Source: an uncultured Candidatus Peribacteria bacterium
GTDB taxonomy: Bacteria; Patescibacteriota; Gracilibacteria; Peribacterales; Peribacteraceae
Assembly (NCBI GenBank): GCA_964534205.1
Contig: CAZHQF010000002.1
Location: 64,488 to 128,487, forward strand
DNA: 64,000 bases
Direction: 5' to 3'
The notes under the pieces were generated by a model that saw nothing but the letters and a program-made list of their open reading frames with translations, was not told the origin of the DNA and made no database searches. Position numbers and translations under genes: made by a program. Within the stretch, counting starts at the first letter, position 1. Each line of letters starts with the position of its first letter. Positions 2 through 47,451 of the stretch are shown here, piece after piece.

Positions 2-3000
2 TACGACGGCGCGCAGACAGGCTGGCGGCAAATCCGTCTGAACGGAGAGTGGATTCCCATCGAGGTGCTCCAGCCGCAGAATGCAGGTCTCTCCCGCGGG
101 TACTGTGCGACCGGAAACGCCGCCACAAGCTGTACGGAGACCCAGAACAATTTCCGGTGCTCGGGGATCAATCTTCTCATGAATCCCGTGCCGATAAACG
201 GACCAACGCGCCCTGTCACCCCTCTTACGGGAGTGTTCTTTCCCGCGCCGTTCGCTCCGGGAATGATCCTCGATCGACGCAGTGACACCGTTGCCCAGGC
301 GGCGTGCAGATATTATGTGGACCCTCAGACGCCGTTCCCGTGTTGCCAGCCGCGCCGGTGGAACACGGAAGCATCGTTTGTCAGCGTTCCGTACAGCCAG
401 TGTCTCGGTATGGCTTTTGATACGGAGCCGATCAGCCCGGATCTGAGAAACATTTACACCCGAAATGACTGCTTCATGGGGACGTTCGTGGTTCCGGGTT
501 TCCGTGGAGCGGACCCCGCGCCCGCGATGTCCATCGGTGACTATCATCTGTGTTGCGATCCGCAGGCCGATGACGGTCCCAATGGGCCCAACCGCACGGC
601 CAGACCGAACATCGGCCGCTGCTCCTACAGTCTGGAAGACAACATCATCGCCTTCAATACAGGAACGCTCTTTGCGGGTGTCGGTCGTCCCATTGCTACC
701 ATCAATCCCGTTCTCAAGCCCGATGCACCCGGCGACACCGGTCCCTCGCATTTCGAAATCGAGCCGCGTGCGCCGTACAGCCATGAATACATCCACTACC
801 TGCTGCATTACGAATTGCTGCAGGCTGACTTCTTTGCACCCCGCACAGGTCCAAGTGAGTTCAATCCCGCAAAGACGGTCGTGCGGATCAAAACGCCAAA
901 CCCCCAGCGCCTGAGCCGCATCATGGGATTACTGAGTGAAACACTGCCGATCCCCACAACCATCGAGGAATATAATGCGGACCCGCGTTCACTCTTTAAG
1001 CTCGTCCCGGATGGAGTGAATCCTCCAGCATGGAAAGCCTATGTACGGCCGGATCAGCCTCCGGGCCTTCCGCCGGACGGCATCCCTGTTCCGTTGCCGA
1101 TGAGCGCATCCGCGCATGCACTTGCGAGCGTGCGCAGACTTGGTGTTGTGGTGGGACTAGCGAATGCCGATGCGAATGGTTGGTTCTATCCCATTGCGGG
1201 TCTGGATGACTGGCGCAAAACCGAGCGGGCGCTGCAGCTGCTGCTCTATCCCCGTCAGGCAAGCAGGGGGGCTGCTCCGGCTCCAAATCGCGCTGTGAAT
1301 TCCTGCGGCGACCAAAATTCCGCGTCGTATCCGCATGCGAATTTTACCATTACGGCGGCAACAACCCCTCAGCAGGTACAGGAGAAAATCAATGAATGTG
1401 CCACCCGGTGCGGTCTCGTTTTCTGCGTATTCACCCGTTCCGGAGAAGGGGTTGCCGCCAGCTGCCAGCGCGGTGCACTGACCATTCCCAATGATGTTCT
1501 CGCGCAGCAGCCTCCCAACCGTTGCTTTGCGGATAACCAGAAGACTACGCATAACCGTCTGATGCCGAACTACTGTGCTCCGCATGCCAACCTTCCGCGC
1601 CCCCCCAACCCCGTCACGCTGCAGACGCAGAACCAGTACATCGCATCTCTCAGCGCACTCGGTTCTTCGCTGTGGGGTACGCGAAAATCCGATGCGGAGT
1701 ACCAGAATCTGCAAGATTGTTCTGCGGCTGCCACTCCTTGTTCCATTATCGTACGCAGCGCCACTGCATCGAGCAGAAGGTCCTTTGCAGGCGGCGGACA
1801 GCAGGGGCAGCAGGCAGGACCTGCGGGCGGCCCTGCCGGACAAGGAGGTGGGAACCTTCCCGGTGGAGGACCGCTCGGGGGACCGCTCGGAGGGCCGGTT
1901 GGCGGTCCGGTGGGAGGGCCGGTGGGTGCTAACGCAGGAACTCCCGCTGGCGGAACACCAACCGGTGCCACGCCCGGGACCGGTCCCGGGACAACACCCG
2001 GCGGAAGTACCTCACCAAGCGGCAACCAGCAGGGCGGTGCACGGTCATCCCCTCCGGGGACATCCACCTCTCCGGGCACCTCCACCGTTGGCCGCACATC
2101 GTCCAGAGCATCATCCGTAAACCTCATCGCTCCGTTCCCTCTTTCCAGTTCATCCTCGTCTACACGCCCGGCAAGTACCTCCTCCTCGCCCTTCAGTTTC
2201 ACAATTCCGTTCGGCAGTTCATCGTCCATAGGATCCAAAACTGGCAGTGCGTCCTCCGGCAGGAGTACGTCGTCCGTTTCCTCCAAGACCGCTTCCACCT
2301 CTTCGGCTTCGTCCAAATCTGCGTCCACCTCTTCGACTACGTCCAAATCCGCGTCCATGTCTTCGGGTGCCTCCAAGTCGGCGTCCGCGTCGTCGGTACG
2401 CTCCGGCACCTCGTCTTCGGCATCGAAAACATCGTCGGTTTCTTCCGGTACAACGTCTTCGCAGCACTCATCCGCATCGTCGATCATCATCGTCTTCAAC
2501 GGCTCATCGTCCAGATCCAGTTCGGCATTGAGTGGAGCCTCTTCCAGTCGTTCCGGTTCTTCCACGGCCGGTGGCTTCAGCTCCTCGCAAAAACCCGGCA
2601 CCAGCTCTGCAGGCGGTTCCACGGGAACAACCGGAGGAAACACGGGGACTACCGGCGGTACGGGTACGAGCGGAACAACGGGTGGAACCGGCACCACCGG
2701 TGCCACAGGGGCGACGGGGGGAAAAACCGGTGGTACGGGAACGACAGGGGGTTCAACCGGAACAACCGGCGGGACCGGCACTAGCGGCGGGACAGCCGGA
2801 ACAACGGGCGGCAGCACGGGGACAACCGGTGGGTACAAGGGCGCGACGGGCGGCACTGCGGCCACAACCGGCGGGTTCACCGGCACGACAGGAGGTCAGA
2901 GCGGGGGAACATCGCGCACGTCGTCGAGTATCAGCGGCGGATCCACGGGAACGACCGGCGGTTCTTTCTTTTCTGTCCGCAGTTCCTCCTCCATCTCTTC

Positions 3001-3913
3001 GTATTGCCCGCCCGAGATCTGCTTCCCGTGCTCTTCCAATGATCAGTGTCCGAGCAGGCAGTGCCTCAACGGCAAATGCACGCCGCTCTGCGGCAACGGG
3101 GTTGTGGACGCAAACGAAGTCTGCGACGACGGCAACACGAACAACGAGGATGCCTGCACCAACGCCTGCAAGCTTGGATCCGACGAACTCTGCAACACAC
3201 ACGGACAGTGCACGACGGGTCTCTGTCTCAACGGTCATTGTTCCGCCTGCAGTACCAACAGCCAGTGCCCCGCGGACACTCTCTGTCTCTCCCGCGCGTG
3301 CGTGGTATCTCCGGTCTGCGGAAACGGTATCATGGAATGGACGGAACGGTGCGACGACGGCAACCGCGATGACAACGATTCCTGCAGCAATCTCTGCCGC
3401 AGAGGCAACGGCGAATCCTGTTCGGTCAACCGCGACTGTGCATCGCTCTCCTGCCAGGACGGTTCTTGTGCAGCGTGCTCATCCGCCGACCGGTGTGGCG
3501 GGACTCCATGCGTCGACGGCCGCTGCGCAGACGGCTGCGGGAACGGCACGGTCGATCCGGGAGAGCAGTGTGATCAGGGAGCGATGAACAGCGATATCAT
3601 TGCTGATGTCTGTCGCACCGACTGTGCGCTCTTCAGAGTGGGCGACGGTGTGAAGGACGGGAATGAGGAGTGTGACGACGGCAACACCGTCTCCGGTGAC
3701 GGCTGCGACCGCTTCGGGCGTCTGGAAACGGGGAGCACGTCCGGCCGTCCCGTGGTCGTCGATCTCTCGCCGACCAAGAATCCCTACCCGGGTTCGGTGA
3801 TCAACGGCGGTAACCGTCCCAACTCGCTCTCGGAAGAAGGCCCTGCCGCGGTGGCCGTGATGGCCGCAGGAGGTGCAGCAGGGTGGGCGTGGATGCGGCG
3901 ACGACGAAAATAA
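2..3913 (+). CDS. Giant secreted/surface protein, 5'-partial. It has a Cys-containing N-region, a Gly/Pro then Ser/Thr/Gly low-complexity stalk, Cys-rich CGNG..E.CDDGN modules, and a C-terminal hydrophobic helix plus RRRRK.
   Basis: ORF 65..3913. The same frame has no stop from nt 2, so the start lies upstream of the window. Modules seen: CGNGVVDANEVCDDGN, CGNGIMEWTERCDDGN, CGNGTVDPGEQCDQG, GDGVKDGNEECDDGN. Tail: PAAVAVMAAGGAAGWAWMRRRRK. Confidence 0.85.
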   Translation, partial: YDGAQTGWRQIRLNGEWIPIEVLQPQNAGLSRGYCATGNAATSCTETQNNFRCSGINLLMNPVPINGPTRPVTPLTGVFFPAPFAPGMILDRRSDTVAQAACRYYVDPQTPFPCCQPRRWNTEASFVSVPYSQCLGMAFDTEPISPDLRNIYTRNDCFMGTFVVPGFRGADPAPAMSIGDYHLCCDPQADDGPNGPNRTARPNIGRCSYSLEDNIIAFNTGTLFAGVGRPIATINPVLKPDAPGDTGPSHFEIEPRAPYSHEYIHYLLHYELLQADFFAPRTGPSEFNPAKTVVRIKTPNPQRLSRIMGLLSETLPIPTTIEEYNADPRSLFKLVPDGVNPPAWKAYVRPDQPPGLPPDGIPVPLPMSASAHALASVRRLGVVVGLANADANGWFYPIAGLDDWRKTERALQLLLYPRQASRGAAPAPNRAVNSCGDQNSASYPHANFTITAATTPQQVQEKINECATRCGLVFCVFTRSGEGVAASCQRGALTIPNDVLAQQPPNRCFADNQKTTHNRLMPNYCAPHANLPRPPNPVTLQTQNQYIASLSALGSSLWGTRKSDAEYQNLQDCSAAATPCSIIVRSATASSRRSFAGGGQQGQQAGPAGGPAGQGGGNLPGGGPLGGPLGGPVGGPVGGPVGANAGTPAGGTPTGATPGTGPGTTPGGSTSPSGNQQGGARSSPPGTSTSPGTSTVGRTSSRASSVNLIAPFPLSSSSSSTRPASTSSSPFSFTIPFGSSSSIGSKTGSASSGRSTSSVSSKTASTSSASSKSASTSSTTSKSASMSSGASKSASASSVRSGTSSSASKTSSVSSGTTSSQHSSASSIIIVFNGSSSRSSSALSGASSSRSGSSTAGGFSSSQKPGTSSAGGSTGTTGGNTGTTGGTGTSGTTGGTGTTGATGATGGKTGGTGTTGGSTGTTGGTGTSGGTAGTTGGSTGTTGGYKGATGGTAATTGGFTGTTGGQSGGTSRTSSSISGGSTGTTGGSFFSVRSSSSISSYCPPEICFPCSSNDQCPSRQCLNGKCTPLCGNGVVDANEVCDDGNTNNEDACTNACKLGSDELCNTHGQCTTGLCLNGHCSACSTNSQCPADTLCLSRACVVSPVCGNGIMEWTERCDDGNRDDNDSCSNLCRRGNGESCSVNRDCASLSCQDGSCAACSSADRCGGTPCVDGRCADGCGNGTVDPGEQCDQGAMNSDIIADVCRTDCALFRVGDGVKDGNEECDDGNTVSGDGCDRFGRLETGSTSGRPVVVDLSPTKNPYPGSVINGGNRPNSLSEEGPAAVAVMAAGGAAGWAWMRRRRK
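2276..2395 (+). repeat. Four tandem 30-bp (10-aa) units inside the giant gene, encoding xSSK[ST]AS[TMA]SS
   Basis: Protein reads SSKTASTSSA / SSKSASTSST / TSKSASMSSG / ASKSASASSV. The DNA units align codon by codon. Confidence 0.8.
2614..2905 (+). repeat. Degenerate ~21-bp (7-aa) tandem units encoding TGG-x-TGT (Gly/Thr stalk)
   Basis: The run GGSTGTTGGNTGTTGGTGTSGTTGGTGTTGATGATGG... continues for about 95 aa. Confidence 0.75.
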
Positions 3914-17341: not shown

Positions 17342-17527
17342 GGTTCCGTGCATGAGTGATGCGCGCACACTGTTGCTGATCAGCCCGATTCTGTGGTGAT
17401 CCATGCCTCCTATTGTGAGGTGCTCATGAGGCCCCTGCAGTGCGTGACCATTCTCGGGTTGTGAGAATGTTCCAAGATGCAGGTCAGGGAGCTCATGGTC
17501 CGGATCTCTGTAGTTTTCGCGTGACAT
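17327..17527 (-). CDS. Possible small His-rich hypothetical protein
   Basis: 66-aa ORF preceded by ctttttcctcacgcgcctATG, the pyrimidine context typical of this window. Overlaps the ribD 3' end by 15 nt. No homology recognised. Confidence 0.25.
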   Translation of the reverse strand: MSRENYRDPDHELPDLHLGTFSQPENGHALQGPHEHLTIGGMDHHRIGLISNSVRASLMHGTSTLL

Positions 17528-17600
17528 AGGCGCGTGAGGAAAAAGCGCGATGTCTTATACGCTGATATTGCCTCTTTTTCAATGGTATTGCGCCAAATCC

Positions 17601-18275
17601 TTACAGTTTTGCCATAATTTTCTGGCCGAATCTGTATGCCCGGAGGAAGAGGCGGTTCCACAGCGGGATCGATCCGTCTTTGGCGTATCTGCGGACGTGC
17701 TTCACAAATCCTCGGCCTTTCTTCTCTGTCTTTTTGAGTGCCTGGGGGCGCTGGTCGAGGACCACACCGAATCTGCCGCGCCCCAGCATCGCCTTGCCTT
17801 CGTAGTGCTTGCCCATAGGCGTGCCGCCGAAGTACCGGATGGATTCCGGGAGGTGCAGTGTCGTCAGTCTCATCAGACCCTTCCAAGCCGGCACTGGTGC
17901 GCCACCGGTGAAGAGGAAGTAAAACGGCTTATTCTTGAGGAGCCCCTTGGAGCGTGTCTCTGCGTCCAGGGCGAACGTCCCCATACGGTCGATCAGGTTT
18001 TTGAGGTGCGCCGGAATAGAGAAATTCCAGATGGGTGTCGCGATCACAACACCGTCGGCATCGTCCATCTCCTTTTTGAGCCGGTCATACCCGAGACCCT
18101 GCTTTGTCCTGGGGTCGTAGTGCGCGAGGGTGAAGTGCTCCAGTTCCAGCTCCTCCACGCGCAGCAGCTCACAGGTCACATCACCTTCCTGCTGCATGCC
18201 CCGGCAGAAGGCTTCCGCAAGGACGCCGGCGTTGCTGGGATTGTTGGTTCCTGCAACCAGGAGGAGCACGCGCAT
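17601..18275 (-). CDS. NAD(P)H-dependent FMN reductase / flavodoxin-like fold protein
   Basis: MRVLLLVAGTNNPSNAGVLAEAF ... DGVVIATPIWNFSIPAHLKNLIDR. Confidence 0.75.
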   Translation of the reverse strand: MRVLLLVAGTNNPSNAGVLAEAFCRGMQQEGDVTCELLRVEELELEHFTLAHYDPRTKQGLGYDRLKKEMDDADGVVIATPIWNFSIPAHLKNLIDRMGTFALDAETRSKGLLKNKPFYFLFTGGAPVPAWKGLMRLTTLHLPESIRYFGGTPMGKHYEGKAMLGRGRFGVVLDQRPQALKKTEKKGRGFVKHVRRYAKDGSIPLWNRLFLRAYRFGQKIMAKL

Positions 18276-18587
18276 GCGCTGAGTGTACCTACGGAACACA
18301 CATTCTCACCACGTGTTTTGATGGGTCTCTGACCTGCATGCATTCCACAATCCGAAAACGCGCCGGAGGCAAGGAGGTTTTTCCGGTTGCATCATCCTGG
18401 TGATTGAGTTGCCGTGATGGAATTTCCGCGTCATCATTGTGCCCTTTTTCGTGACAGCAGAGCGGCCATTTCGGGGTCGACCCGTGTCAGACAACGCCGG
18501 GTTGACCGTCTCCGGTGATAACAATAGCTTGTGTCGTTGTCACAGCAGGTACAACTACCTGTTGTGTTTCCTTTCCCTCCCACACCG

Positions 18588-21500
18588 ATGAATCCCAAGG
18601 CCGCTTCCGCCGCTTCTGACGCCCTCACCCGCACCGATGGACGCAGGGCGGAAGGACTTGCCGTGAACGGTGGCGAACGGAGCATCCCTCCCATGGAGCA
18701 GGAGCGCGCACGCAAGGGGACGGGAAAGGGGCTCACGATCCCGCGCGTATTCACGACGCCGGGCAGTGATCCCTTGGATGAGATCCGGTACGAGATGCGC
18801 ACCAGCCGCATCGTGAACACCGACGGCTCGGTGGTCTTCGAGATGCAGAACGCCGAGATCCCGGCCGACTGGAGCCAGGTAGCCACCGATATCATGGTCA
18901 GCAAGTACTTCCGCAAGGCGGGTGTGCCGCAGACCGATGCCCAGGGCAATGTGCTGCGCAACGATAAGGGGGAGGTCATCACGGGGCCCGAGCGTTCCGC
19001 CCGCCAGGTGATGCGCCGCCTCGCAGGCTGCTGGAGATTCTGGGGACAGAAGTACGGGTACTTCGAGACCGCGCAGGACGCCCAGGCCTTCGAGGACGAG
19101 CTCTCCTACATGCTCATCCGCCAGATGGCCGCTCCCAACAGCCCCCAGTGGTTCAACACGGGCCTGCACTATGCGTACGGCATCACGGGTCCGGCCCAGG
19201 GGCACTACTACTGCGATCCCATCACGGGCGAGGTGCGCAAGAGCGAGGACGCCTACACACATCCCCAACCGCACGCCTGCTTCATCCAGAGCGTGGGTGA
19301 CGATATGGTCAATGAGGGCGGCATCATGGACCTGTGGGTCCGCGAGGCGCGCCTGTTCAAGTTCGGATCCGGCACCGGCACCAACTTCTCAAAACTCCGC
19401 GGAGCAGGGGAGCCGCTGTCCGGTGGCGGCAAGAGCTCGGGTCTCATGAGTTTCCTCAAGATCGGCGATCGTGCCGCCGGAGCCATCAAGTCCGGGGGCA
19501 CCACGCGTCGCGCCGCCAAGATGGTCTGTCTCGATCTCGATCACCCGGATATCGAGGAGTTCGTGAATTGGAAGGTCAACGAGGAGAAGAAAGTGGCTGC
19601 GATGGCCGCCGCCGGCTACGACACGGACTTCAACGGTGAGGCGTATTCCACCGTCTCCGGTCAGAATTCCAACAACTCCGTCCGCATCGCCCACGACTTC
19701 TTCGAGGCTGTCGAGAAGGATGGTGACTGGAATCTCTATTGGCGTACCGAACTCAAGAAGGCTCAGCGCGAAGGTCGCGAAGCCAAGCCCAGCAAGACGC
19801 TCAAGGCCAGAAAGCTCTGGGAGCAGATCGGCTACGCCGCATGGGCGTGTGCCGACCCGGGTGTGCAGTACGACACCACCATCAACGACTGGCACACCTG
19901 CCCGGCCGACGGACGCATCAATGCGTCTAACCCCTGCAGCGAGTACATGTTCCTCGATAACACCGCCTGCAACCTGGCATCCCTCAACCTGCTCAAGTTC
20001 TACGATGCCGAGCACGGGACGTTCGAGGTGGAGAAGTACAAACATGCCGTGCGCCTGTGGACCGTGGTGCTCGAGATCTCCGTGCTCATGGCCCAGTTCC
20101 CGAGCAAGGAGATCGCCGAACTCAGCTACACGTTCCGCACGCTCGGTCTCGGGTACGCCAACCTGGGTGCCATGCTGATGCGCATGGGCATTCCGTACGA
20201 TTCTCCCAAGGGGCGTGCCATCTGCGCGGCGCTCACCGCCATCATGACGGGCGAGAGCTACGTCACCTCCGCGGAGATGGCCGAATCGCTCGGGACGTTC
20301 AGCGGCTTTGAGCGCAACCGCGAGCACATGCTCCGCGTGATGCGCAACCACCGCCGTGCCGCCTACAATGTGCCCGTCAACGAGTACGAGTCGCTCGCGG
20401 TCCCTCCCGTCGGTATCGATCAGGAAGTCTGCCCGCCGGCCATGCTCACCGCTGCCAAGGAGGCCTGGGACAAGGCGCTCGCCAAGGGCGAGAAGTTTGG
20501 CTACCGCAACGCGCAGGTCACCGTCATCGCGCCCACGGGCACCATCGGTCTGCTGATGGATTGCGATACCACCGGCGTGGAGCCGGACTTCGCGCTCGTG
20601 AAATTCAAGAAGCTCGCAGGCGGCGGCTATATGAAGATCGCCAACCAGTCGGTGGCACCGGCCATGCGCGCTCTCGGCTACGGCCAGAAGGAAGTCACCG
20701 ACATCATGAACTACGTCATGGGCACGCTCTCGCTCAAGGGGGCACCGCACGTCAATGCCGAGACGCTCAGGGCGCGAGGCTTCACCGATGACGAGATCGC
20801 CAAAATCGAGAAGCAGCTCCCGCAGGTCTTCGAGCTGGGGTTCGCGTTCAACCGCTGGATCCTCGGCGATGCCACGCTCACGCGCCTGGGCATCACCGAT
20901 GAGCAGATGAAAGATCCGTCCTTCAGTCTGCTGCGCGCACTCGGCTTTACCCAGGAGCAGCTCGATGAGGCCAACCAGCACATCTGCGGCCGCATGACGG
21001 TGGAGGGTGCACCGCATCTGAAGCCCGAGCATCTCCCCGTCTTCGACTGCGCCAACAAGTGCGGCAAACTCGGCAAGCGCTACATCGCCGCCGAGGGGCA
21101 CATCCGCATGATGGCCGCCTCGCAGCCGTTCATCAGCGGGGCGATCTCTAAAACCATCAACCTCCCGAACGATGCCACGCTTGAGGACATCATGAATGCG
21201 TATCTCCTCAGCTGGAAGCTCGGACTCAAGGCCAACGCGCTCTACCGCGACGGCAGCAAGCTCTCGCAAGCCCTCTCCAACGTGTCGGACAGCAAGAAAT
21301 CCAAAGCGAAGGAGATGGAAGTCAAAACCGTTACCGTGGAGAAAATCGTCGTCAAAGAGGTGCCGCGCCGCCGCAAGCTCCCGGAGGAGCGCATGGCCAT
21401 TGCCCACAAGTTCTCCGTGGCCGGGCACGAAGGCTACGTGCACGTGGGTATGTACGAGGACGGCTCCCCGGGTGAACTCTTCATCAAGATGAGCAAGGAG

Positions 21501-25383: not shown

Positions 25384-25412
25384 TTGACAATTATTAAAAA
25401 TATGATTATCAT
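25384..25412 (+). promoter_or_regulatory. Sigma70-type promoter
   Basis: TTGACA, 17 nt, TATCAT. The -10 ends 10 nt before the ATG at 25423. Confidence 0.55.
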
Positions 25413-25422
25413 TGGCTTCCCT

Positions 25423-26640
25423 ATGCGTCGTACTCTCTCTTCGCTGGCGTCTGCCGCCATCCTGCTCTCCCTCGTTCCCGGGAGTGTGTTTGCCTCGTAC
25501 TCCGATGTGAACGGCACGCGCTTTGTCGCGGCGTACGATCATCTCACCGCCCGCGGCATGGTGCAGGGCTATCCCGATGGCACCGGTCGTCCCAATGCGG
25601 AAATCAACCGCGCAGAGGCGGTAAAAATCCTCCTCGAATCCCGTCCGGAGAACGAGAGCAGGGTCAACAACTACCGGAGCAACCCCTCGCGTGTCTTCAA
25701 TGATATCGGCAACGGTGAGTGGTACGACCCGTACATCCCTGCCGCGCGCGATGTGGGCATGCTCACCGGCTATCCCGACGGTTCGTTCCGTCCGAGCAAT
25801 CGCATCCTCCTTCCCGAAGCGCTGGGCATGATCTACCGCAGCTACGGCTTTACCGCGCAGGCGCAGGCCGGTCAGCAATGGTATCAGCCGTACCTGGACA
25901 AGGCGCTGGAACAGAACACCATCTTCCTCGGCGACCGCTACGGCATCAGCCAGCCCATCACCCGCGGACAGTTCATCGATATCGTGTACCGCCTGGAGAT
26001 TGTGCTCAGCCAGAACCTTAGCGCTTTCCGCGATCCGCCCGAGCTGGCCGGCATGCAGCGCTACGAGATTGATATGAGTACGGGCTCGCAGCAAAACAAC
26101 TCCGGGAACCCGCTCATCATCCATGAGAACAACCAGATGGAGTACCGCCAGCCCGGCACAAGCGCCGCTCCCACGGGTTCCTACAGCCAGTCCGAGCTGC
26201 AGTACAAGTCTTCCAAGGCGTTTGCCATCAGCATCCCGCGCCTGGGGATCAGCGATCTTACGATCACGCATCCGGAAGATGCCGGTACGAGCGAGGGTCT
26301 CGTGGCTCCGCTCCAGACCGGTGTCGGTCACCTCTTTGCCTTCCCCGGCCGTGACGGCAAGGTGATGGTCTACGGCCACTCCAGCGGCTACGCCTGGGAC
26401 GTCTCGGAGTACACCAAGATTTTCCGCAGGGTGAACGAGCTGCAGAACGGTGACCGTGTGTACGTCACGTTCGATGGCACGCTCTACATCTACGAGGTCA
26501 CGCGTCAGCAGGTGATCAACCCTTCCGATGTCACCCCCTTTATGGGCAACGGCGAGGAGCTGATCCTGTACACCTGCTGGCCGCCGGATTCGATCGATAC
26601 GCGCCTGCTGGTGCATGCGAAACCGGTAGCCCGGATCTAA
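25423..26640 (+). CDS. Signal peptide + three SLH repeats + sortase-family transpeptidase domain
   Basis: SLH repeats: YSDVNGTRF...GMVQGYPDGTGRP, FNDIGNGEWY...GMLTGYPDGSFRP. Sortase triad context: VYGHSSG, ELILYTCWP, DTRLLVHA. Confidence 0.8.
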   Translation: MRRTLSSLASAAILLSLVPGSVFASYSDVNGTRFVAAYDHLTARGMVQGYPDGTGRPNAEINRAEAVKILLESRPENESRVNNYRSNPSRVFNDIGNGEWYDPYIPAARDVGMLTGYPDGSFRPSNRILLPEALGMIYRSYGFTAQAQAGQQWYQPYLDKALEQNTIFLGDRYGISQPITRGQFIDIVYRLEIVLSQNLSAFRDPPELAGMQRYEIDMSTGSQQNNSGNPLIIHENNQMEYRQPGTSAAPTGSYSQSELQYKSSKAFAISIPRLGISDLTITHPEDAGTSEGLVAPLQTGVGHLFAFPGRDGKVMVYGHSSGYAWDVSEYTKIFRRVNELQNGDRVYVTFDGTLYIYEVTRQQVINPSDVTPFMGNGEELILYTCWPPDSIDTRLLVHAKPVARI

Positions 26641-26735: not shown

Positions 26736-27170
26736 TTAAAAAGATAGTTCCGTGATATCCCACCTTCCACAGGCGGATGACCACGGAAATTCTTCAGGAT
26801 GTTCCACAAGACCTGCTTTCACCGGATTGCGATGAATGTAGGACTTTGCTGCGCCTGGATGGTTGACACACTGGATATGGAATCGCCTTTGCCAAAGGGG
26901 CCCGATACCGATGCTGTGACTCAATCCCATTTTGAATCTGTTTAAGATTGTGGAGGTATTCAATGGTGCATTCGTTTTCAGGAGAAGATGCACGTGATCC
27001 GGCATGATCACGAATGCGTAGAGCCAGAACGGCCACAGGGTCTGTACACGGTAAAGAAGTTCAACTGCTTCTCTGGCATAGACAGGGTCTTTGAAAATCG
27101 GCCGTCTGTTCTTCGTGATTGTTGTTACAAGCAGAATGCGGTCATGTTGGACAGGGTGGCGCTGGGTCAT
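26736..27170 (-). CDS. IS200/IS605-like Y1 transposase of the REP-associated (RAYT) type
   Basis: IMPDHVHLLL (HUH motif) and YIHRNPVKAGLVEHPEEFPWSS (catalytic Tyr region). Confidence 0.8.
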   Translation of the reverse strand: MTQRHPVQHDRILLVTTITKNRRPIFKDPVYAREAVELLYRVQTLWPFWLYAFVIMPDHVHLLLKTNAPLNTSTILNRFKMGLSHSIGIGPLWQRRFHIQCVNHPGAAKSYIHRNPVKAGLVEHPEEFPWSSACGRWDITELSF

Positions 27171-27373: not shown

Positions 27374-29860
27374 TCACGCCCCGATTCTCCTAATAATTTC
27401 ACGATCCACAAACTCCTTCGCACGCCCGTACTTGAGACGGCTGAGCTGCTTGAAGGCTTCCGCGGCCTGTACATCCTTGGTGTAGGTGAAGTCCTTCCAC
27501 GGGGCCGGGACCTCGATGGAGAAGGGGCGGGAAGACTGGCCCTTAATGCAGAGCTTCATCGCGCCCTTCAAGAAGTCGGAGTTGGTGAGATCGGATTCCG
27601 AGAACACAGGGCCCATCTGCTTGGCACCGAGTTCCGCGTCCTGCGGACCGATACGGTAGAACATCATGGAACCGACGTTACCGAAGATGGCCCCCTTGAG
27701 GCTCACGGAGCCCGCGAGCTTGCTCTCCTTCTCCAGCTGGTCGAGGTACTGGTGGGCGAGCACGAGACCGAGGCGGTATTTGCGTGCCTCGGAGAGGATC
27801 GATTCGATCGACTGCGTCACGAAGTTCTGGAATTCGTCGATGTAGAGGAAGAAATCCTTCCGTTCCTCCGCGCTCGCGCGCTGGCGGCGCATGGCGGCGA
27901 CCTGGATCTTATTCACGGTCATGAGACCGAGCAGGTTACTGTTGATGTCACCGATGAGACCTTTCGAGAGGTTCATCAGGAGGATCTTGCCGTTATTCAT
28001 CACATCGGAGATATCGAACGCGCTCTTGGTCTGGCCCACGATGTTACGGATGAGCGTGTTGGTGGTGAACTGACCGAACTTGGCGGCGAAGTAGGGGATC
28101 ATCTCCTGCTTCTCGCGCTGGCCGGTGGAGGCCATCTGCTTTTCCCAGAAGGAACGCACGATCGGGTTTTTCACTTTGGAAACCTTGTGCTTCTGCCACT
28201 CGTCATCGGTGAACAGGCGCACGAGATCGGTGATGGCACCGCCCTCGTCCTCGTCATCCATGAGGGTGAGACAGCCGTTGCGGAAGTAGTCCTGGATGCG
28301 CGGACCGAAGATCTCCTCGCCGAACATCTTCACCATCATGTTCATGGCGTCGAGGGCGATGAGGTCTTTTTCCTCCGGCGTCTTGCCCTCGAGCAGGTTG
28401 AAACCCATCGGGCGTTCGGTATCGGCCGGGTTGAAGTAGATCACATCATCGGCGCGTGAGCGGGGGATGTAGGGCAGCAGGTCCTCGATGAGCGAGCCGT
28501 GCGGGTCAACCACACAGATGCCTTTGCCGTTATGCAGATCCTGGCGGGCCATCAGCTGAATGATGGAAGATTTACCCGTACCGGTCTGACCGATGATGTA
28601 GAAGTGTCGGAAGCGGTCTTCGTTCTCCACGAACACCTTCTTCTTCTCCCCGCGGTAGGAGTTGTAGCCGAGGAAGAGACCGTCGGTCGGCAGATCTTTT
28701 GGAGCAGGGGCCGTCTTGAAGTTCTGCCACTTGATCGTCTCCACTTTGTTGTACTTGATGTTCGGCAGGTGAAAGAGCGATGCAAGCTCCGTGGTGCCCA
28801 GCAGGAAACCCGGATAGCGCAGCATTTGCAGAAGCGTGCGGCGCGGGCTGCGGCGTACGAACTGCTCCACCACACGCGCATGGTTGATCATCTTCGCCTT
28901 CTTGAATTTATTCCCGCGGATCTCGTTGAACTGCGCGAAGGAGGCGACGACGCCGTCGAGCAGCATGTCTGCGCGTGACTGCGTCTTTGCGGATGTGACA
29001 AGCCGGATGACCGCGTGGAAGCCGGCGTAGTTGGCCTTCTCGTCCAGGGCCTTGCTGTACTCCTCGGCCATCTGTGAAACTCGCTCGCCGGTGGACTGTT
29101 CCGCCTTCTCATCGATGATGCTGTCGCCGCCGCCGAGGATGTTGTAGACGGCGGTGACGATGTTCATGGGGTTCCACCAGCTTCCCGAGCCTTTCTTCTT
29201 CGGATTGATGAGGGCTCTGGCCTCGTCCTGCAGCTTGGACTGCCAGCCGGACTTGGCGGGGCGGAGGACAAACTGCACGGCGGCACCTTCGTCTTTTGCA
29301 AGCTTGGAGAATGCGTTGGTGATGGAGTTGAGCGGGTCGCTCTTGAGGTGCTGATAGGTCTTGAACACCGACTTCCAGTTCTTGGACGGCACGAGCACTT
29401 CGGTGGACGTCACGGATTCCTCCGTGAAGATGTTGTAGTCCTCCACCTCGTCGATGATCATGTCCGGGTAGAACGATGTCAGCTGCTTCTCGATCAGGTG
29501 CGCGATTTTGCGGGGACACACCATGAAGAACAGAATCTCTCCCGCAAGCGCGGCGTATTCGACGGAGAAGTACTCCTGGCCCTTCCAATTCGCGGAGAAC
29601 TTGCTCGTGTAGAGGCTGTGGAGCGACTGATACAGGTGATCCATCACCCCGAGCACCTCGCGGAAGTCTTTCCCCGAGGAGAACTGCTCGGAATCCGTTT
29701 CTTTATCCTCCTTGCTCTCCTTCTTCGGCATCAGAATCTGGAAGAACACGAGCTCCTTCTCGCGCTTCCGGTCGGCCATCCAGCGCATCGACGCCAACAC
29801 TCCCTGCACGATGCCGTACAGGGCGGCGAGAGAGCCGAAGAGGATCAGGATGCTCTGCAT
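27374..29860 (-). CDS. VirD4/TraD/TraG-like (type IV coupling protein family) P-loop ATPase with an N-terminal TM helix
   Basis: ATG at 29860 (MQSILILFGSLAALYG). Walker A IIGQTGTGKSS, Walker B FFLYIDEFQNF, then GLVLAHQYLDQL. The 347 upstream codons of ORF 27374..30901 are rejected. Confidence 0.8.
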   Translation of the reverse strand: MQSILILFGSLAALYGIVQGVLASMRWMADRKREKELVFFQILMPKKESKEDKETDSEQFSSGKDFREVLGVMDHLYQSLHSLYTSKFSANWKGQEYFSVEYAALAGEILFFMVCPRKIAHLIEKQLTSFYPDMIIDEVEDYNIFTEESVTSTEVLVPSKNWKSVFKTYQHLKSDPLNSITNAFSKLAKDEGAAVQFVLRPAKSGWQSKLQDEARALINPKKKGSGSWWNPMNIVTAVYNILGGGDSIIDEKAEQSTGERVSQMAEEYSKALDEKANYAGFHAVIRLVTSAKTQSRADMLLDGVVASFAQFNEIRGNKFKKAKMINHARVVEQFVRRSPRRTLLQMLRYPGFLLGTTELASLFHLPNIKYNKVETIKWQNFKTAPAPKDLPTDGLFLGYNSYRGEKKKVFVENEDRFRHFYIIGQTGTGKSSIIQLMARQDLHNGKGICVVDPHGSLIEDLLPYIPRSRADDVIYFNPADTERPMGFNLLEGKTPEEKDLIALDAMNMMVKMFGEEIFGPRIQDYFRNGCLTLMDDEDEGGAITDLVRLFTDDEWQKHKVSKVKNPIVRSFWEKQMASTGQREKQEMIPYFAAKFGQFTTNTLIRNIVGQTKSAFDISDVMNNGKILLMNLSKGLIGDINSNLLGLMTVNKIQVAAMRRQRASAEERKDFFLYIDEFQNFVTQSIESILSEARKYRLGLVLAHQYLDQLEKESKLAGSVSLKGAIFGNVGSMMFYRIGPQDAELGAKQMGPVFSESDLTNSDFLKGAMKLCIKGQSSRPFSIEVPAPWKDFTYTKDVQAAEAFKQLSRLKYGRAKEFVDREIIRRIGA

Positions 29861-30061
29861 GCGGAGTATCGTATCATTGTAGCAGAAATCGTGCTTTTTC
29901 TCCAGCTGGAGCGGCGAACCGCCTTTGGGACGGGGGGGCCTGTTTTCCGCTACACTGCTGGCCGAATAGCCAGGTCTCTGACGTCCTTCAACCGGCGCAC
30001 CATCCGGTCGCTTCTCCGCGGCGCACACGGGTATATCTTTGGCAGGCGCGGTCAGGGCAGG

Positions 30062-31132
30062 GTGCACGGGTGGAAGGCCCTCTATCGACTGCGGGTCAAC
30101 GTTCTTCTGCATTCCCCCAGGGCGATCCGTGAAGCAAGCGCCTTTCAGCGGCCCAGACTCTGGGTCGATGACGAGGCATTCCCGCGCATCTTCAAGCTCC
30201 TCAGGCGTGCGCGCCACACCGTGCTGATCCAGATGTTCATCTGGAAGGACGACCGCATCGGCCGCAAGACCGCCGAGGTGCTCTGCGAGGCCGCTGACCG
30301 TGGCGTGAATGTGGAGATCTTCAAGGAAGCAGTGGGGGATTTCTTCGAGACCGATCAGGATTTTTTGACCACCAAATCTTCCGAAGATCCCGTGTGGAAG
30401 CGTTTCTGGAACCACAAGCGGATCCGTGTGGTCTATGAGCCGCGCAACGACCACACCAAGGTGTTCATTATCGATGACAATATCCTGCTGCTCACCGGCA
30501 TGAACGTCGCCGATGAATACCATGAGGAATGGCACGATTACATGGTTGAGCTCAAGGGGCACGCGTTCATCGAGCATTACCTGAGCCGCGGCGAAGCGGT
30601 GACCACCTCGGGAGCCGAACGGCTCGTGATGAATACCGATACACGCAAAGACATCCGCCCGGTGATGATGGAGCTCATTTCCGCCGCGCGCGAAACCATC
30701 GTCATCGAGCACTGCTACTTCTCCGATACGCAGGTGGTTGATGCCTTGGCTCAGAGAAGCCACGAAGGCGTGCGGGTGACGGTGATCGTGCCGAAAGAGC
30801 CCGATCTCCATTACAACGCCAACCAGCAGGCGATGGCGCGGCTCCTCTCCGGCGGCCATCCCAAGCGGTTGCAGGTGTTCCAGTATCCCCGCATCGTCCA
30901 CGGCAAGATCATGCTCATCGACCGCTCGCGCGCTTTCATCGGATCGGCAAATCTCATGGCCTCCTCGCTCGATGAGATGGGCGAGGTGAATGTGCTGCTC
31001 TCGGGTGCAAACTCCCCGGCTATCCTCAAGCTCCGTCAGGTATTACGTGATGACATACTCCAGAGTGAACCGCTCAGGAGCCCGCCGTCGCTGTGGTGGT
31101 TCAGGCGGTGGTTGGCATGGCTCAAGCTCTGA
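30062..31132 (+). CDS. Phospholipase D-superfamily protein with two HKD motifs (cardiolipin-synthase-like). Start uncertain (GTG 30062 proposed).
   Basis: NDHTKVFIIDDNILLLTGMN and IVHGKIMLIDRSRAFIGSANL. The upstream part of ORF 29348..31132 overlaps the ATPase gene antisense. Confidence 0.75.
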   Translation: MHGWKALYRLRVNVLLHSPRAIREASAFQRPRLWVDDEAFPRIFKLLRRARHTVLIQMFIWKDDRIGRKTAEVLCEAADRGVNVEIFKEAVGDFFETDQDFLTTKSSEDPVWKRFWNHKRIRVVYEPRNDHTKVFIIDDNILLLTGMNVADEYHEEWHDYMVELKGHAFIEHYLSRGEAVTTSGAERLVMNTDTRKDIRPVMMELISAARETIVIEHCYFSDTQVVDALAQRSHEGVRVTVIVPKEPDLHYNANQQAMARLLSGGHPKRLQVFQYPRIVHGKIMLIDRSRAFIGSANLMASSLDEMGEVNVLLSGANSPAILKLRQVLRDDILQSEPLRSPPSLWWFRRWLAWLKL

Positions 31133-40675: not shown

Positions 40676-40747
40676 TACTTATTGCTAATTGCTAATTTCT
40701 AATTTTACGGGGAATTAGCAATTAGAAATCAGGAATCAGAAATTAGT
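40676..40747. repeat. CTAATT-word long imperfect hairpin (copy c)
   Basis: attacttattgctaattgctaatttctaatt ttacgggg aattagcaattagaaatcaggaatcagaaattag. Confidence 0.8.
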
Positions 40748-40802
40748 GTTTGGCTTTTCAGTAAGCCAAAAACATGCTATAATAAAGAAGACACAAACCC
40801 CT

Positions 40803-42155: not shown

Positions 42156-42166
42156 AGTGACGGCCT

Positions 42167-46235: not shown

Positions 46236-47348
46236 TTATTGGAGCCAGGGCTCGATGGTGACCCGGAGGTTCCAGAGGATTTCTGCCATGTCTCCGCGCG
46301 TGATCATCGTGCCTGCAGAGACACCGGCCGGCATTACCTGCTGTTCATTGAGCGCGTTGATGTACGGCACGTACCACTCAACGCCTGCCTGCGTTTTCAC
46401 ATCCAGGCCCATCGTCAGTGCAACAATCTTTGCTGCCTCAGCAGCATTGATCGTTGCGCTCGGGCGGAATGAGCCATCGGGATACCCGCGGATGATGTTT
46501 TCCTCTTTTGCGACGCACACGTACGCGGCGTACCACTCCTTGCGCGATACATCAGAGAAGAGAAGATCTCTATTGTTATTGAGACATTCATACGAGTAGT
46601 CACCGCTGTACATTGCTCCAACAAGCATCTTCACGAACTCTGCGCGGGTGATGAGCCTTTCGGGGCGGAACGTGCCATCCGGATAGCCCTGTACGATGCC
46701 GTGTGTCTTCACAAAGACGATAGCTTCAAAGATGGGATGACGCTCGGAGACATCGGTGAATGGCCGGTCAGCGGTCGCATCACCACCGTGCGTGAGGCAG
46801 GGCGGAGCGAAGTAATTGATCACGTGGCCGTCCTCAGTGCAGCTGGGATGTGTGGTTCCGTCCATGCACACGTACGGCTTGCACTCATCGGAAATAGTTG
46901 AAGATGACGAACTGGAGGACGACTGGGGAAGAGTCTTGAGATAGGCCAATGTTTCCGTGGCGTTCCTTATGCTTGCGGTCCCAGTACAGAGGCCAGTCCA
47001 GAGCTCATTATTGTAAGAGGATGACGTCGTGCCGTCCCGCGTATACGCAAAGACAACGTACTCACCGCCTTCGGAAAAGTTGAAGCCACAGGTGGCAGAA
47101 TCCTGATGGGAAAGAATCAGCACAGAGCTCCCCACATCTCCTTTCCACTCCTGATCGACATCGAATGTGTAGCCGATGATGCGGTTGCGGTCAGGCTCAC
47201 TGACTGCCGTGACCGTGCCTGAGAACACGACGTCTGCACGTTCATAGTGCTCAGCGGGTGTGGACATCATGCACGAACACGCATAAGCCGTGGTGGCGAC
47301 CAGAAACGCGCCGATGGCGGTACTGAGAGAAAGGAGAGGGTGTTTCAT
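46236..47348 (-). CDS. Secreted protein: TIMP-like (CSC N-terminus) OB/NTR domain + Ser linker + Cys-rich segment + three SLH repeats
   Basis: MKHPLLSLSTAIGAFLVATTAYA|CSCMMSTPAEHYERADVVFSGTV...CGFNFSEGGEYVVFA. SLH repeats: FTDVSERHPIF...GIVQGYPDGTFRP, FSDVSRKEWY...IIRGYPDGSFRP. Confidence 0.75.
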   Translation of the reverse strand: MKHPLLSLSTAIGAFLVATTAYACSCMMSTPAEHYERADVVFSGTVTAVSEPDRNRIIGYTFDVDQEWKGDVGSSVLILSHQDSATCGFNFSEGGEYVVFAYTRDGTTSSSYNNELWTGLCTGTASIRNATETLAYLKTLPQSSSSSSSSTISDECKPYVCMDGTTHPSCTEDGHVINYFAPPCLTHGGDATADRPFTDVSERHPIFEAIVFVKTHGIVQGYPDGTFRPERLITRAEFVKMLVGAMYSGDYSYECLNNNRDLLFSDVSRKEWYAAYVCVAKEENIIRGYPDGSFRPSATINAAEAAKIVALTMGLDVKTQAGVEWYVPYINALNEQQVMPAGVSAGTMITRGDMAEILWNLRVTIEPWLQ

Positions 47349-47451
47349 AGATACGGGGGAAGGTAGCACATGACCTACTACGGACAGATGGCCCGTGGGT
47401 AACACCATTGTCTGACGCATGGAGAATGCCCTTCTGACCGTTTTTCCACCC

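What the first reader, a model, noticed from the sequence alone, without database searches (positions are those of the whole stretch)
25384..26640. Sortase domain anchored by three SLH repeats instead of a membrane helix
Seen: the protein has a signal peptide (MRRTLSSLASAAILLSLVPGSVFA). Three S-layer-homology repeats follow (…GMVQGYPDGTGRP…, …GMLTGYPDGSFRP…, and a third WYQPY… repeat). A C-terminal domain carries the sortase signature residues in order: VYGHSSG, LILYTCWP and DTRLLVHA. Established: sortases are normally held at the membrane by an N-terminal TM anchor, and SLH domains bind pyruvylated secondary cell-wall polymers. Inference: this would be a transpeptidase displayed on the wall or S-layer, which implies an unusual site or substrate for sorting. 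No LPXTG-type motif was seen in any protein in this window. The only tripartite C-terminal signal-like tail is on the giant protein ending at 3913 (…SLSEEGPAAVAVMAAGGAAGWAWMRRRRK).
Basis: partly seen in the sequence, partly recalled or inferred. Interest (0 to 1): 0.66.

Follow-up and report, generated by a model that had tools for sequence, protein, structure and literature searches.

The report
Wall-tethered SLH sortase of Peribacteria
This gene encodes a sortase (a surface-protein-attaching enzyme) that has a cleavable export signal and three cell-wall-binding SLH repeats where sortases normally have a membrane anchor; it is a conserved but never-studied core gene of the Peribacteria/Peregrinibacteria candidate bacteria, and its substrates are still unknown.

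Summary
The gene at 25423-26640 (+) encodes a 405-aa protein with four parts: a Sec-type signal peptide, three SLH repeats, a roughly 55-aa disordered linker, and a sortase domain with invariant His319, Cys385 and Arg394. The SLH residues that bind pyruvylated wall polymer in the P. alvei SpaA structure are invariant in the aligned homologues.

The gene is not a one-off. At least 823 homologues exist, and 171 species representatives carry one, nearly all of them Peribacteria or Peregrinibacteria. In 78 of 80 loci it sits divergently next to ychF. The supplement to the 2016 Ca. Peribacter riflensis paper labels the orthologue both "srtA" and "S-layer domain-containing protein". No paper I could find discusses the fusion.

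Its nearest relatives without SLH are CPR sortases with true N-terminal membrane helices. Related genomes also carry a second, membrane-anchored sortase.

The tail on the giant protein ending at 3913 belongs to a conserved sorting-signal family, P-[VA]-G-[DQ]-T-G-P followed by a 17-residue Ala/Gly helix and RRRR. It is found on giant Cys-rich DUF4215 proteins. The window's own copy is degenerate (SEEGP).

Which enzyme processes that tail is unresolved. I read the protein as a wall-tethered sortase and therefore a new variant of a known kind. The substrate and the site of action are inferred.

The parts
25384..25412 (+). Promoter-like site TTGACA-17-TATCAT. It would place the transcript start a few bases before ATG 25423.
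   Evidence: 11 of 12 consensus matches. This is a consensus match only, not evidence of function.
25423..26640 (+). SLH-sortase coding sequence (405 aa plus stop).
   Evidence: Self-match P0001; 823 homologues.
25423..25494 (+). Signal peptide aa 1-24 (MRR, then a hydrophobic core, then PGSVFA), with a predicted cut before S25.
   Evidence: 116 of 116 homologues have a small-x-small site directly before SLH1. Cleavage itself is inferred.
25495..25686 (+). SLH repeat 1 (aa 25-88). Carries GMVQG and NRAE (Arg63, Glu65).
   Evidence: Residue roles are taken from PMC6081394.
25687..25866 (+). SLH repeat 2 (aa 89-148). Carries Trp100, GMLTG (Gly116) and LLPE (Glu132), a TVEE-like variant without Arg.
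25867..26022 (+). SLH repeat 3 (aa 149-200). Carries Trp153 and TRGQ (Arg181), a TRAQ-like variant.
26023..26184 (+). Variable linker, predicted disordered (aa 201-254).
   Evidence: pLDDT below 50 at aa 221-246; length and sequence vary between homologues.
26185..26637 (+). Sortase catalytic domain (aa 255-405).
   Evidence: PF04203; Foldseek hits to class C, E, D and A sortases.
26377..26379 (+). His319 codon (YGHSS).
   Evidence: Invariant. Aligns with the GHS motif of chain 6bwe_A.
26575..26577 (+). Cys385 codon (YTCWPP).
   Evidence: Invariant. Aligns with the TC motif of chain 6bwe_A.
26602..26604 (+). Arg394 codon (TRLLVHA).
   Evidence: Invariant. Aligns with the Arg of the R-LLV motif of chain 6bwe_A.
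2..3913 (+). Tentative substrate: a giant surface protein (more than 1303 aa, N-terminus outside the window) with Ser/Thr/Gly-rich spacers and DUF4215 Cys-rich repeats.
   Evidence: A tail-bearing ORF sits at the same place relative to rpoC in other Peribacteria.
3821..3910 (+). C-terminal tripartite tail NSLSEEGP-AAVAVMAAGGAAGWAWM-RRRRK. It is a degenerate member of the P[VA]G[DQ]TGP tail family.
   Evidence: The link to this sortase is inferred only.
46236..47420 (-). Context: a second secreted protein with three C-terminal SLH repeats. It shows that SLH anchoring is used by other proteins of this organism.

Best explanation
The gene encodes a catalytically competent sortase-family cysteine transpeptidase. 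I propose it is exported by Sec, loses its 24-residue signal peptide, and is then held non-covalently in the cell wall. The holding device would be the SLH trimer bound to pyruvylated secondary cell-wall polymer, in place of the usual membrane helix.

A variable linker, about 55 residues here and predicted disordered, lets the catalytic barrel move between the wall and the outer face of the membrane. There the enzyme would cut a C-terminal sorting signal and join the freed carboxyl to an amine in the envelope. That amine could be a peptidoglycan stem peptide or lipid II.

The most likely signal is the lineage-specific tail P-[VA]-G-[DQ]-T|G-P followed by a 17-residue Ala/Gly-rich helix and RRRR. 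It is carried by giant Cys-rich DUF4215 surface proteins, one of which ends at 3913 in this window.

Shown here: the domain architecture, the conserved His/Cys/Arg residues, the conserved SCWP-binding residues, the lineage-wide conservation and synteny, and the existence and conservation of the tail family.

Inferred: signal-peptide cleavage, the wall location, the identity of the substrate, the scissile bond and the acceptor.
For: Domain content: Pfam Sortase at E=7.6e-19 and SLH at E=4.9e-13.

Structure: the AlphaFold model has mean pLDDT 80.7, a confident SLH trimer, a confident sortase barrel and a disordered linker. Foldseek top hits are class C, E, D and A sortases at E about 1e-8.

Catalytic residues: His319, Cys385 and Arg394 are invariant in 31 homologues and align with the matching motifs of a solved sortase chain.

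SLH binding pocket: the primary pyruvyl-ManNAc pocket of SpaA uses the Arg of the SLH1 TRAE motif, SLH-Gly29 of SLH2 and SLH-Trp13 of SLH3 (PMC6081394). The residues at those motif positions here, Arg63, Gly116 and Trp153, are invariant (motif positions checked). The motif series NRAE / xxEE / TRGQ parallels SpaA's TRAE / TVEE / TRAQ.

No membrane anchor: 116 of 116 homologues have a signal-peptidase-type site just before SLH1, and only 1 of 116 has any other hydrophobic segment.

Contrast with relatives: the closest sortases without SLH (30-39% identity, motif LQTCWPPG) mostly have real N-terminal membrane helices.

Core-gene status: 171 species representatives carry a relative. ychF is the divergent neighbour in 78 of 80 loci and RNHCP is present in 73 of 80.

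SLH anchoring is plausible in this lineage. The window has another SLH protein. The complete Ca. Peribacter riflensis genome has two genes annotated as CsaB pyruvyl transferase and several S-layer-domain proteins.

Tail family: across 31 tails, P1 is Thr in 28, P1' is Gly in 31 and P2' is Pro in 31, with a fixed 16-17 residues before the basic cluster. The tails sit on ORFs of about 310 to 1560 aa (stop-to-stop; several cut by a contig end) that match the window's Cys-rich DUF4215 region. The canonical T-G pair is kept, and some tails just pass the LPXTG_anchor model TIGR01167 (17.6 against a cutoff of 15.9).

Co-location: the tail gene and the SLH-sortase lie in the same conserved block, about 21.5 kb apart in the window.
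Against: - No experiment and no dedicated signal-peptide predictor supports cleavage. An uncleaved signal-anchor would give a membrane-anchored enzyme that also binds the wall.
- The protein scores below every NCBIfam sortase-class cutoff and just below the generic sortase model (35.3 against 39.35).
- No substrate gene is adjacent in any of 80 loci.
- The window's own tail has Glu, not Thr, at P1 (SEEGP).
- Related genomes hold a second, membrane-anchored sortase: gene 350 of Ca. P. riflensis and L047 17331-18623. That enzyme is at least as good a candidate for a membrane-embedded tail.
- In the tails, the motif abuts the helix directly and the helix sequence itself is conserved. To my knowledge this is more typical of signals read by intramembrane sorting enzymes.
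- The tails also score at the cutoffs of the MYXO-CTERM and PEP-CTERM models.
Confidence: 0.6

Rival explanations
1. The architecture is the same, but the P[VA]G[DQ]TGP tails are processed by another enzyme. That enzyme could be the co-resident membrane-anchored sortase or an intramembrane protease of the CPBP, PrsW or rhomboid type. The SLH-sortase would then act on a different, still unidentified set of proteins within the wall. Examples are secreted or SLH-bound proteins, the S-layer, or a second polymerising or cross-linking step after the membrane sortase.
For: - A second sortase with a long cytosolic N-terminus and a membrane helix occurs in related genomes (L047; passes TIGR01076 at 53.5 bits).
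- In Ca. P. riflensis that second sortase sits directly upstream of a pappalysin-like protein gene on the same strand. Several pappalysin-annotated genes of that genome are listed as cysteine-rich.
- The tail motif abuts a conserved Ala/Gly-rich helix of fixed length.
- The tails reach the cutoffs of MYXO-CTERM and PEP-CTERM as well as LPXTG.
- The window encodes a PrsW-like protease, and Ca. P. riflensis has weak COG1266 (CAAX-protease-type) hits.
- The window's own tail lacks Thr at P1.
Against: - The invariant T-G pair is the classical sortase cut site.
- No exosortase and only a weak rhomboid hit appear in the complete Peribacter annotation.
- The gene after the second sortase is not conserved: in L047 it is a 472-aa protein without a tail.
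- No alternative motif for the SLH-sortase was found.
Confidence: 0.3
2. The N-terminal hydrophobic segment is not cleaved. The enzyme would be an ordinary membrane-anchored sortase whose stalk happens to contain an SLH trimer. It would then be tethered to both membrane and wall, with SLH serving to position or regulate it rather than replace the anchor.
For: - To my knowledge, the membrane anchors of sortases resemble uncleaved signal peptides.
- No dedicated signal-peptide predictor or experimental data were available here.
- Some homologues have uncharged runs of up to 23 residues.
Against: - The median uncharged run is 16 residues.
- A small-x-small motif, often preceded by Pro or Gly, lies directly before SLH1 in 116 of 116 homologues.
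- To my knowledge, SLH trimers of characterised proteins start right after a cleaved signal peptide.
- Related CPR sortases that are membrane-anchored look quite different, with a cytosolic extension and a 19-23-residue helix scoring KD 1.6 or more.
Confidence: 0.1

Closest known systems
Membrane-anchored CPR (Patescibacteria) sortases with the LQTCWPPG active-site motif, including the second sortase of Peribacteria (L047 17331-18623; Ca. P. riflensis gene 350)
   Same: - Closest catalytic-domain relatives, at 30-39% identity.
- Same TC-W/T-P-type cysteine motif.
- Same His and Arg spacing.
- Also unclassifiable among classes A-F by NCBIfam.
   Different: - Most have a cytosolic N-terminal extension and a true membrane helix, and no SLH.
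- The window protein has a signal peptide, an SLH trimer and a linker instead.
- The window protein is more divergent from the generic sortase model (35 against 53-59 bits).
Class C (pilus-polymerising) sortases, e.g. S. agalactiae SrtC1 (3tbe), A. oris SrtC-1 (2xwg), S. sanguinis SrtC (8guu)
   Same: - Best structural matches (Foldseek E about 1e-8).
- Best NCBIfam class score (47.6 bits).
- To my knowledge, class C sortases also have a cleavable N-terminal signal peptide.
   Different: - The score is far below the class C cutoff of 160.
- There is no C-terminal membrane helix.
- I found no lid segment upstream of the barrel. The conserved DPF of the family (DAG in the window) lies in the normal beta2-beta3 region, only 33 residues before the His.
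- No pilin genes are adjacent.
SLH-anchored surface proteins: B. anthracis Sap (3pyw), P. alvei SpaA and SlhA
   Same: - Signal peptide followed directly by three SLH repeats.
- TRAE / TVEE / TRAQ-like motif series.
- Conserved Arg, Gly and Trp at the motif positions of the pyruvyl-ManNAc pocket.
   Different: The passenger is a sortase catalytic domain. I found no described case of that in the literature library.
C-terminal sorting signals: LPXTG (TIGR01167), MYXO-CTERM (TIGR03901/TIGR03382), PEP-CTERM (TIGR02595), GVDTG-CTERM (NF058571)
   Same: - The candidate substrate tails are tripartite: motif, hydrophobic helix, basic cluster.
- They keep T-G.
- They sit on DUF4215 Cys-rich repeat proteins. 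Pfam names DUF4215 and NCBIfam names a myxococcal Cys-rich repeat for this region.
   Different: - The tails score only at or below the cutoffs of all these models.
- The motif is P[VA]G[DQ]TGP with no Leu-Pro and no Cys.
- The helix has a fixed length and is Ala/Gly-rich.

Membership tests
Sortase superfamily (Pfam PF04203 / cysteine transpeptidases) | Significant match to the sortase domain model. | tested here: met
   PF04203 at 68.1 bits against a cutoff of 26.6, E=7.6e-19, full model length.
Sortase superfamily (Pfam PF04203 / cysteine transpeptidases) | His, Cys and Arg present in order and conserved. | tested here: met
   His319, Cys385 and Arg394 are invariant in 31 homologues. They align to the GHS, TC and R-LLV motifs of chain 6bwe_A.
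Sortase superfamily (Pfam PF04203 / cysteine transpeptidases) | Sortase beta-barrel fold. | tested here: met
   In the AlphaFold model most of aa 251-405 has block-mean pLDDT above 70. Foldseek probability is 1.00 to many sortase structures, with TM-scores of 0.5-0.68 normalised to the target. Distances between the three residues could not be measured because no coordinates were returned.
Sortase superfamily (Pfam PF04203 / cysteine transpeptidases) | Transpeptidase activity on a sorting signal. | not testable with these tools
   Needs biochemistry.
NCBIfam generic sortase TIGR01076 | Score at or above the curated cutoff. | tested here: not met
   35.3 bits against a cutoff of 39.35. This is a near miss.
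Sortase classes A-F and GN (NCBIfam class models) | Score at or above the class cutoff. | tested here: not met
   Class C 47.6 against 160, SrtD 41.3 against 140, class E 40.4 against 160, class D 38.6 against 165, GN 23 against 158, class F 18.7 against 166. The protein is not a member of any defined class.
Canonical housekeeping sortase topology | N-terminal (or C-terminal) membrane helix that anchors the enzyme. | tested here: not met
   The N-terminal segment has signal-peptide features in 116 of 116 homologues. No other hydrophobic segment is present in 115 of 116. Cleavage itself is untested.
SLH-domain trimer (PF00395 / PROSITE PS51272) | Three tandem SLH repeats. | tested here: met
   PF00395 at 49.3 bits against a cutoff of 20.8, two stretches. 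The third repeat is supported by internal alignment (z=4.4), by its motifs and by the model. There are sequence matches to the Sap SLH trimer.
SLH-domain trimer (PF00395 / PROSITE PS51272) | Conserved ligand-binding residues: the Arg of the TRAE motif, SLH-Gly29 and SLH-Trp13. | tested here: met
   Arg63, Glu65, Gly116, Glu132, Trp100, Trp153 and Arg181 are invariant. Their motif positions were checked. Roles are taken from PMC6081394.
SLH-domain trimer (PF00395 / PROSITE PS51272) | The organism makes pyruvylated SCWP (CsaB present). | tested here: inconclusive
   No csaB lies in the 64-kb window. Two genes are annotated as CsaB in the complete genome of the relative Ca. P. riflensis. The rest of the source genome could not be read.
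LPXTG-type cell-wall sorting signal (for the candidate substrate) | LPXTG pentapeptide, hydrophobic segment and basic tail at the C-terminus. | tested here: inconclusive
   The hydrophobic and basic parts are present. The motif is P[VA]G[DQ]TGP, and SEEGP in the window. TIGR01167 scores range from 14.2 to 17.6 around the cutoff of 15.9.

The most novel reading that the evidence does not exclude
The SLH-sortase and the P[VA]G[DQ]TGP tails form a Peregrinibacteria-specific sorting system. In it, a wall-resident sortase rather than a membrane-resident one captures giant Cys-rich adhesins at the membrane surface. It then joins them to mature wall material, such as an uncross-linked stem peptide or another wall component, next to the polymer that holds the enzyme. 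The membrane-anchored paralogue would serve a different set of proteins. This would be the first sortase whose site of action is set by a carbohydrate-binding module.
Probability: 0.2. Interest if true: 0.75.

Novelty: new variant of a known kind. Interest (0 to 1): 0.55.

Why it matters
As far as I know, every characterised sortase works from the membrane, because both the enzyme and its substrate are held there and the acceptor is lipid II. A sortase held by SLH repeats to wall polysaccharide raises two questions: where sorting takes place, and what the acceptor is.

The enzyme is conserved in a whole class of ultra-small, probably host-attached CPR bacteria. Their giant Cys-rich surface proteins are thought to mediate attachment (PMC4736985). 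If the pairing with the P[VA]G[DQ]TGP tails holds, it would explain how those proteins are fixed to the envelope. It would also add a new sorting motif for genome annotation. At present gene callers cut these giant genes into 44-72-aa fragments.

The catalytic domain might also be of practical interest as a ligase with a non-LPXTG specificity.

Tried and rejected
- I looked for a substrate gene next to the sortase in 80 related loci (1.3 Mb). None was found. The neighbours are housekeeping genes: ychF, RNHCP, ribonucleotide reductase and a TrwB-like ATPase.
- I tested whether the tail belongs to a known sorting-signal model. Only borderline scores were obtained, spread over LPXTG, MYXO-CTERM, PEP-CTERM and GVDTG-CTERM, so no assignment is possible. 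A literature search for GVDTG gave nothing relevant.
- I considered a class C "lid". The family's DPF motif lies in the ordinary beta2-beta3 region, and the window protein has DAG there, so I rejected it.
- I considered a pseudo-enzyme. This is rejected because His, Cys and Arg are invariant across the family.
- I considered recent horizontal acquisition or a mobile-element cargo, because an IS200-like ORF lies downstream. This is rejected because the gene sits in a conserved syntenic block in 78 of 80 genomes, and only 6 of 80 loci have such an ORF.
- The metagenome scan with the first tail alignment failed because no stretch was conserved enough. The narrower alignment gave only 4 loci, because the pattern MAAGAAAG is common.
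- I tried to recover the N-terminus of the giant protein by looking up its neighbour. Only 2.6-kb contigs that break inside the giant gene were found.
- csaB, exosortase and rhombosortase were not found in the window. The rest of the source genome could not be read.
Full report
**1. The observation**

An ORF runs from 25384 to 26640 on the + strand. The likely start is ATG 25423 (MRRTLSS...). The closest homologues that begin at the aligned position start with MRR. The TTG at 25384 is the TTGACA hexamer of a promoter-like site, TTGACA-17-TATCAT, at 25384-25412 (11 of 12 matches). That site would give a nearly leaderless mRNA.

The divergent neighbour is ychF. Its homology-supported start is at 25264, which leaves an intergenic region of about 160 bp.

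**2. What the protein is**

- Pfam gives Sortase PF04203 (E=7.6e-19, aa 269-402, full model) and SLH PF00395 (E=4.9e-13).
- Against solved structures, the C-terminal part matches sortase chains and the N-terminal part matches the SLH trimer of B. anthracis Sap.
- An AlphaFold model built on 31 homologues (mean pLDDT 80.7) shows a signal helix, a confident SLH domain (most 10-residue blocks over aa 30-200 exceed pLDDT 90), a disordered stretch (pLDDT below 50 at aa 221-246) and a beta-barrel at aa 255-405.
- Foldseek finds class C sortases first, then classes E, D and A, all near E=1e-8.
- His319, Cys385 and Arg394 are invariant. They align with the GHS, TC and R-LLV motifs of chain 6bwe_A.
- The protein fails every NCBIfam class model by a wide margin and narrowly misses the generic TIGR01076 cutoff (35.3 against 39.35). 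It is therefore a divergent, unclassified sortase.

**3. The SLH part**

Three repeats are present: aa 25-88, 89-148 and 149-200. Repeats 1/2 align with z=9.3 and repeats 2/3 with z=4.4.

Their motifs, NRAE, LLPE (family consensus xxEE) and TRGQ, parallel the TRAE, TVEE and TRAQ series of Paenibacillus alvei SpaA. In SpaA the main pocket for pyruvylated ManNAc is formed by the Arg of the SLH1 TRAE motif, SLH-Gly29 of SLH2 and SLH-Trp13 of SLH3 (PMC6081394). By motif position these correspond here to Arg63, Gly116 and Trp153, all of which are invariant in the family.

The window encodes another SLH protein at 46236-47420. No csaB lies in the window. The annotation table of the complete Ca. Peribacter riflensis genome lists two CsaB-annotated genes and several S-layer-domain proteins.

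**4. Anchor or signal peptide?**

I examined the 120 best homologues; 116 have a recognisable SLH1 start.
- All 116 have a small-x-small site within 7 residues upstream of SLH1.
- The median uncharged run is 16 residues.
- Only one has any other hydrophobic segment.
- There is no C-terminal helix.

The nearest sortases without SLH are CPR enzymes with the motif LQTCWPPG, at 30-39% identity. Most carry a cytosolic extension followed by a real membrane helix. Cleavage itself is inferred.

**5. Distribution**

- The first protein search returned 823 homologues, and the best 120 all have the SLH plus sortase architecture.
- The exhaustive search with the catalytic domain alone found 59 cluster representatives at E<1e-30. 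Beyond these, 4 of 38 more distant relatives sampled also carry SLH.
- In species-representative genomes, 171 encode a relative. Of the best 80, nearly all are named Peribacteria or Peregrinibacteria.
- Synteny is strong: ychF is divergent in 78 of 80 loci, RNHCP is present in 73 of 80, ribonucleotide reductase in 61 of 80, and a TrwB-like ATPase is convergent downstream in 47 of 80.

The orthologue in Ca. P. riflensis is gene 264 (402 aa, next to ychF). It is labelled both "srtA" and "S-layer domain-containing protein" in the supplement of PMC4736985. The main text mentions only "a sortase A". No paper in the library holds both "sortase domain" and "SLH", and other searches found no description of the fusion.

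**6. Substrates**

No canonical LPXTG tail occurs in the window or in 1.3 Mb of related loci.

The tail on the giant DUF4215 protein ending at 3913 is a member of a conserved family. I collected 31 tails from protein hits and loci.

| Position | Residue | Count |
|---|---|---|
| P1 | Thr | 28 of 31 |
| P1' | Gly | 31 of 31 |
| P2' | Pro | 31 of 31 |
| P2 | Asp, Gln, Glu or Asn | 28 of 31 |
| P3 | Gly | 20 of 31 |
| P4 | Val or Ala | 21 of 31 |
| P5 | Pro | 19 of 31 |

These positions are followed by 16-17 Ala/Gly-rich residues and a basic cluster. The tails end ORFs of about 310 to 1560 aa that match the window's Cys-rich region. Gene callers often cut these genes into fragments of 44-72 aa.

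In L081-L084 the tail ORF sits at the same place as in the window, upstream of a 167-aa gene, rpoC, rpsL and fusA. Other copies lie near ribosomal-protein genes or prfA, which suggests the family has more than one genomic location.

The window's copy is the outlier (SEEGP). Curated models give only borderline scores, spread over LPXTG, MYXO-CTERM and PEP-CTERM.

**7. A complication**

Related genomes have a second sortase. In Ca. P. riflensis it is gene 350 (408 aa, beside mnmA and prfA, upstream of a pappalysin-like protein gene). In L047 it lies at 17331-18623 and has a long cytosolic N-terminus, a membrane helix and the motif LMTCTPVG. It passes TIGR01076. It is an obvious alternative processor for membrane-embedded tails.

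Weak COG1266 hits in Ca. P. riflensis and a PrsW-like protease in the window are further alternatives. I could not decide between them with the data in reach.

**8. Verdict**

The architecture and its meaning, a sortase tethered to wall polymer rather than to the membrane, are well supported. The family is real, ancient within its lineage and uncharacterised. The mechanism of tethering is inferred from strong residue-level conservation. The substrate, cut site and acceptor are hypotheses.

This is a new variant of a known kind. It is already visible in database annotation, but I found no description of it in the literature I could search.

Noticed in passing
window 25384-25412: A near-consensus promoter-like site, TTGACA-17-TATCAT, overlaps the TTG that the ORF finder took as the start. 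ATG 25423 would then begin a nearly leaderless transcript.
   Followed up: partly
window 26736-27170 (-): An IS200-like Y1 transposase ORF lies between the sortase and the TrwB-like ATPase. Only 6 of 80 related loci have such a hit nearby. It was not called as a gene in other assemblies that carry the identical sortase protein (L095-L097).
   Followed up: partly
window 46236-47420 (-): A second SLH protein. After a hydrophobic N-terminal segment its N-terminal domain starts with Cys-Ser-Cys, which looks TIMP/NTR-like (untested). It is followed by a Ser-rich spacer and three C-terminal SLH repeats.
   Followed up: no
window 33953-35503 (+): A DUF4215 Cys-rich protein whose membrane helix and RRR are followed by a 30-aa cytosolic tail ending DDIPLDQIEMPWHKW. 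P0147 ends with almost the same motif (DDIPLDELEMPWHNWDK), so this is a conserved cytosolic motif of unknown role.
   Followed up: no
window 56542-57846 (-): A protein that combines an N-terminal type IV pilin methylation motif (N_methyl) with a C-terminal DUF4215 Cys-rich repeat.
   Followed up: no
window 40746-43813 (+): A PrsW-like intramembrane protease gene is followed by an S41 (CtpA-type) PDZ protease gene. A 557-aa uncharacterised gene followed by ctpA occupies the matching position in Ca. Peribacter riflensis (genes 275-276).
   Followed up: partly
L047 17331-18623 (-): A second sortase of 430 aa, with a long cytosolic N-terminus, a membrane helix and the motif LMTCTPVG. It lies next to mnmA and prfA, as gene 350 does in Ca. 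P. riflensis. Peribacteria therefore appear to carry two sortases with different anchoring.
   Followed up: partly
L092 3740-3937: A stand-alone 65-aa ORF (at most 104 aa stop-to-stop) that consists almost only of the PVGDTGP tail. It lies between rplL and a 484-aa gene in a 43.6% GC contig. It is either a remnant or a small tail-anchored protein.
   Followed up: no
L081, L082, L089-L091 (P0178, P0183, P0184, P0190): Public gene calls cut the tail-bearing giant genes into fragments of 48-72 aa, although the stop-to-stop ORFs are about 310 to 1460 aa. Contigs also tend to break inside these repeat-rich genes. As a result these surface proteins are under-represented in protein databases.
   Followed up: partly
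window 27374-30901 (-): A large TrwB/VirD4-like (COG0433-type) ATPase with an N-terminal membrane segment is conserved convergently downstream of the sortase in 47 of 80 loci. Its function is unknown.
   Followed up: no
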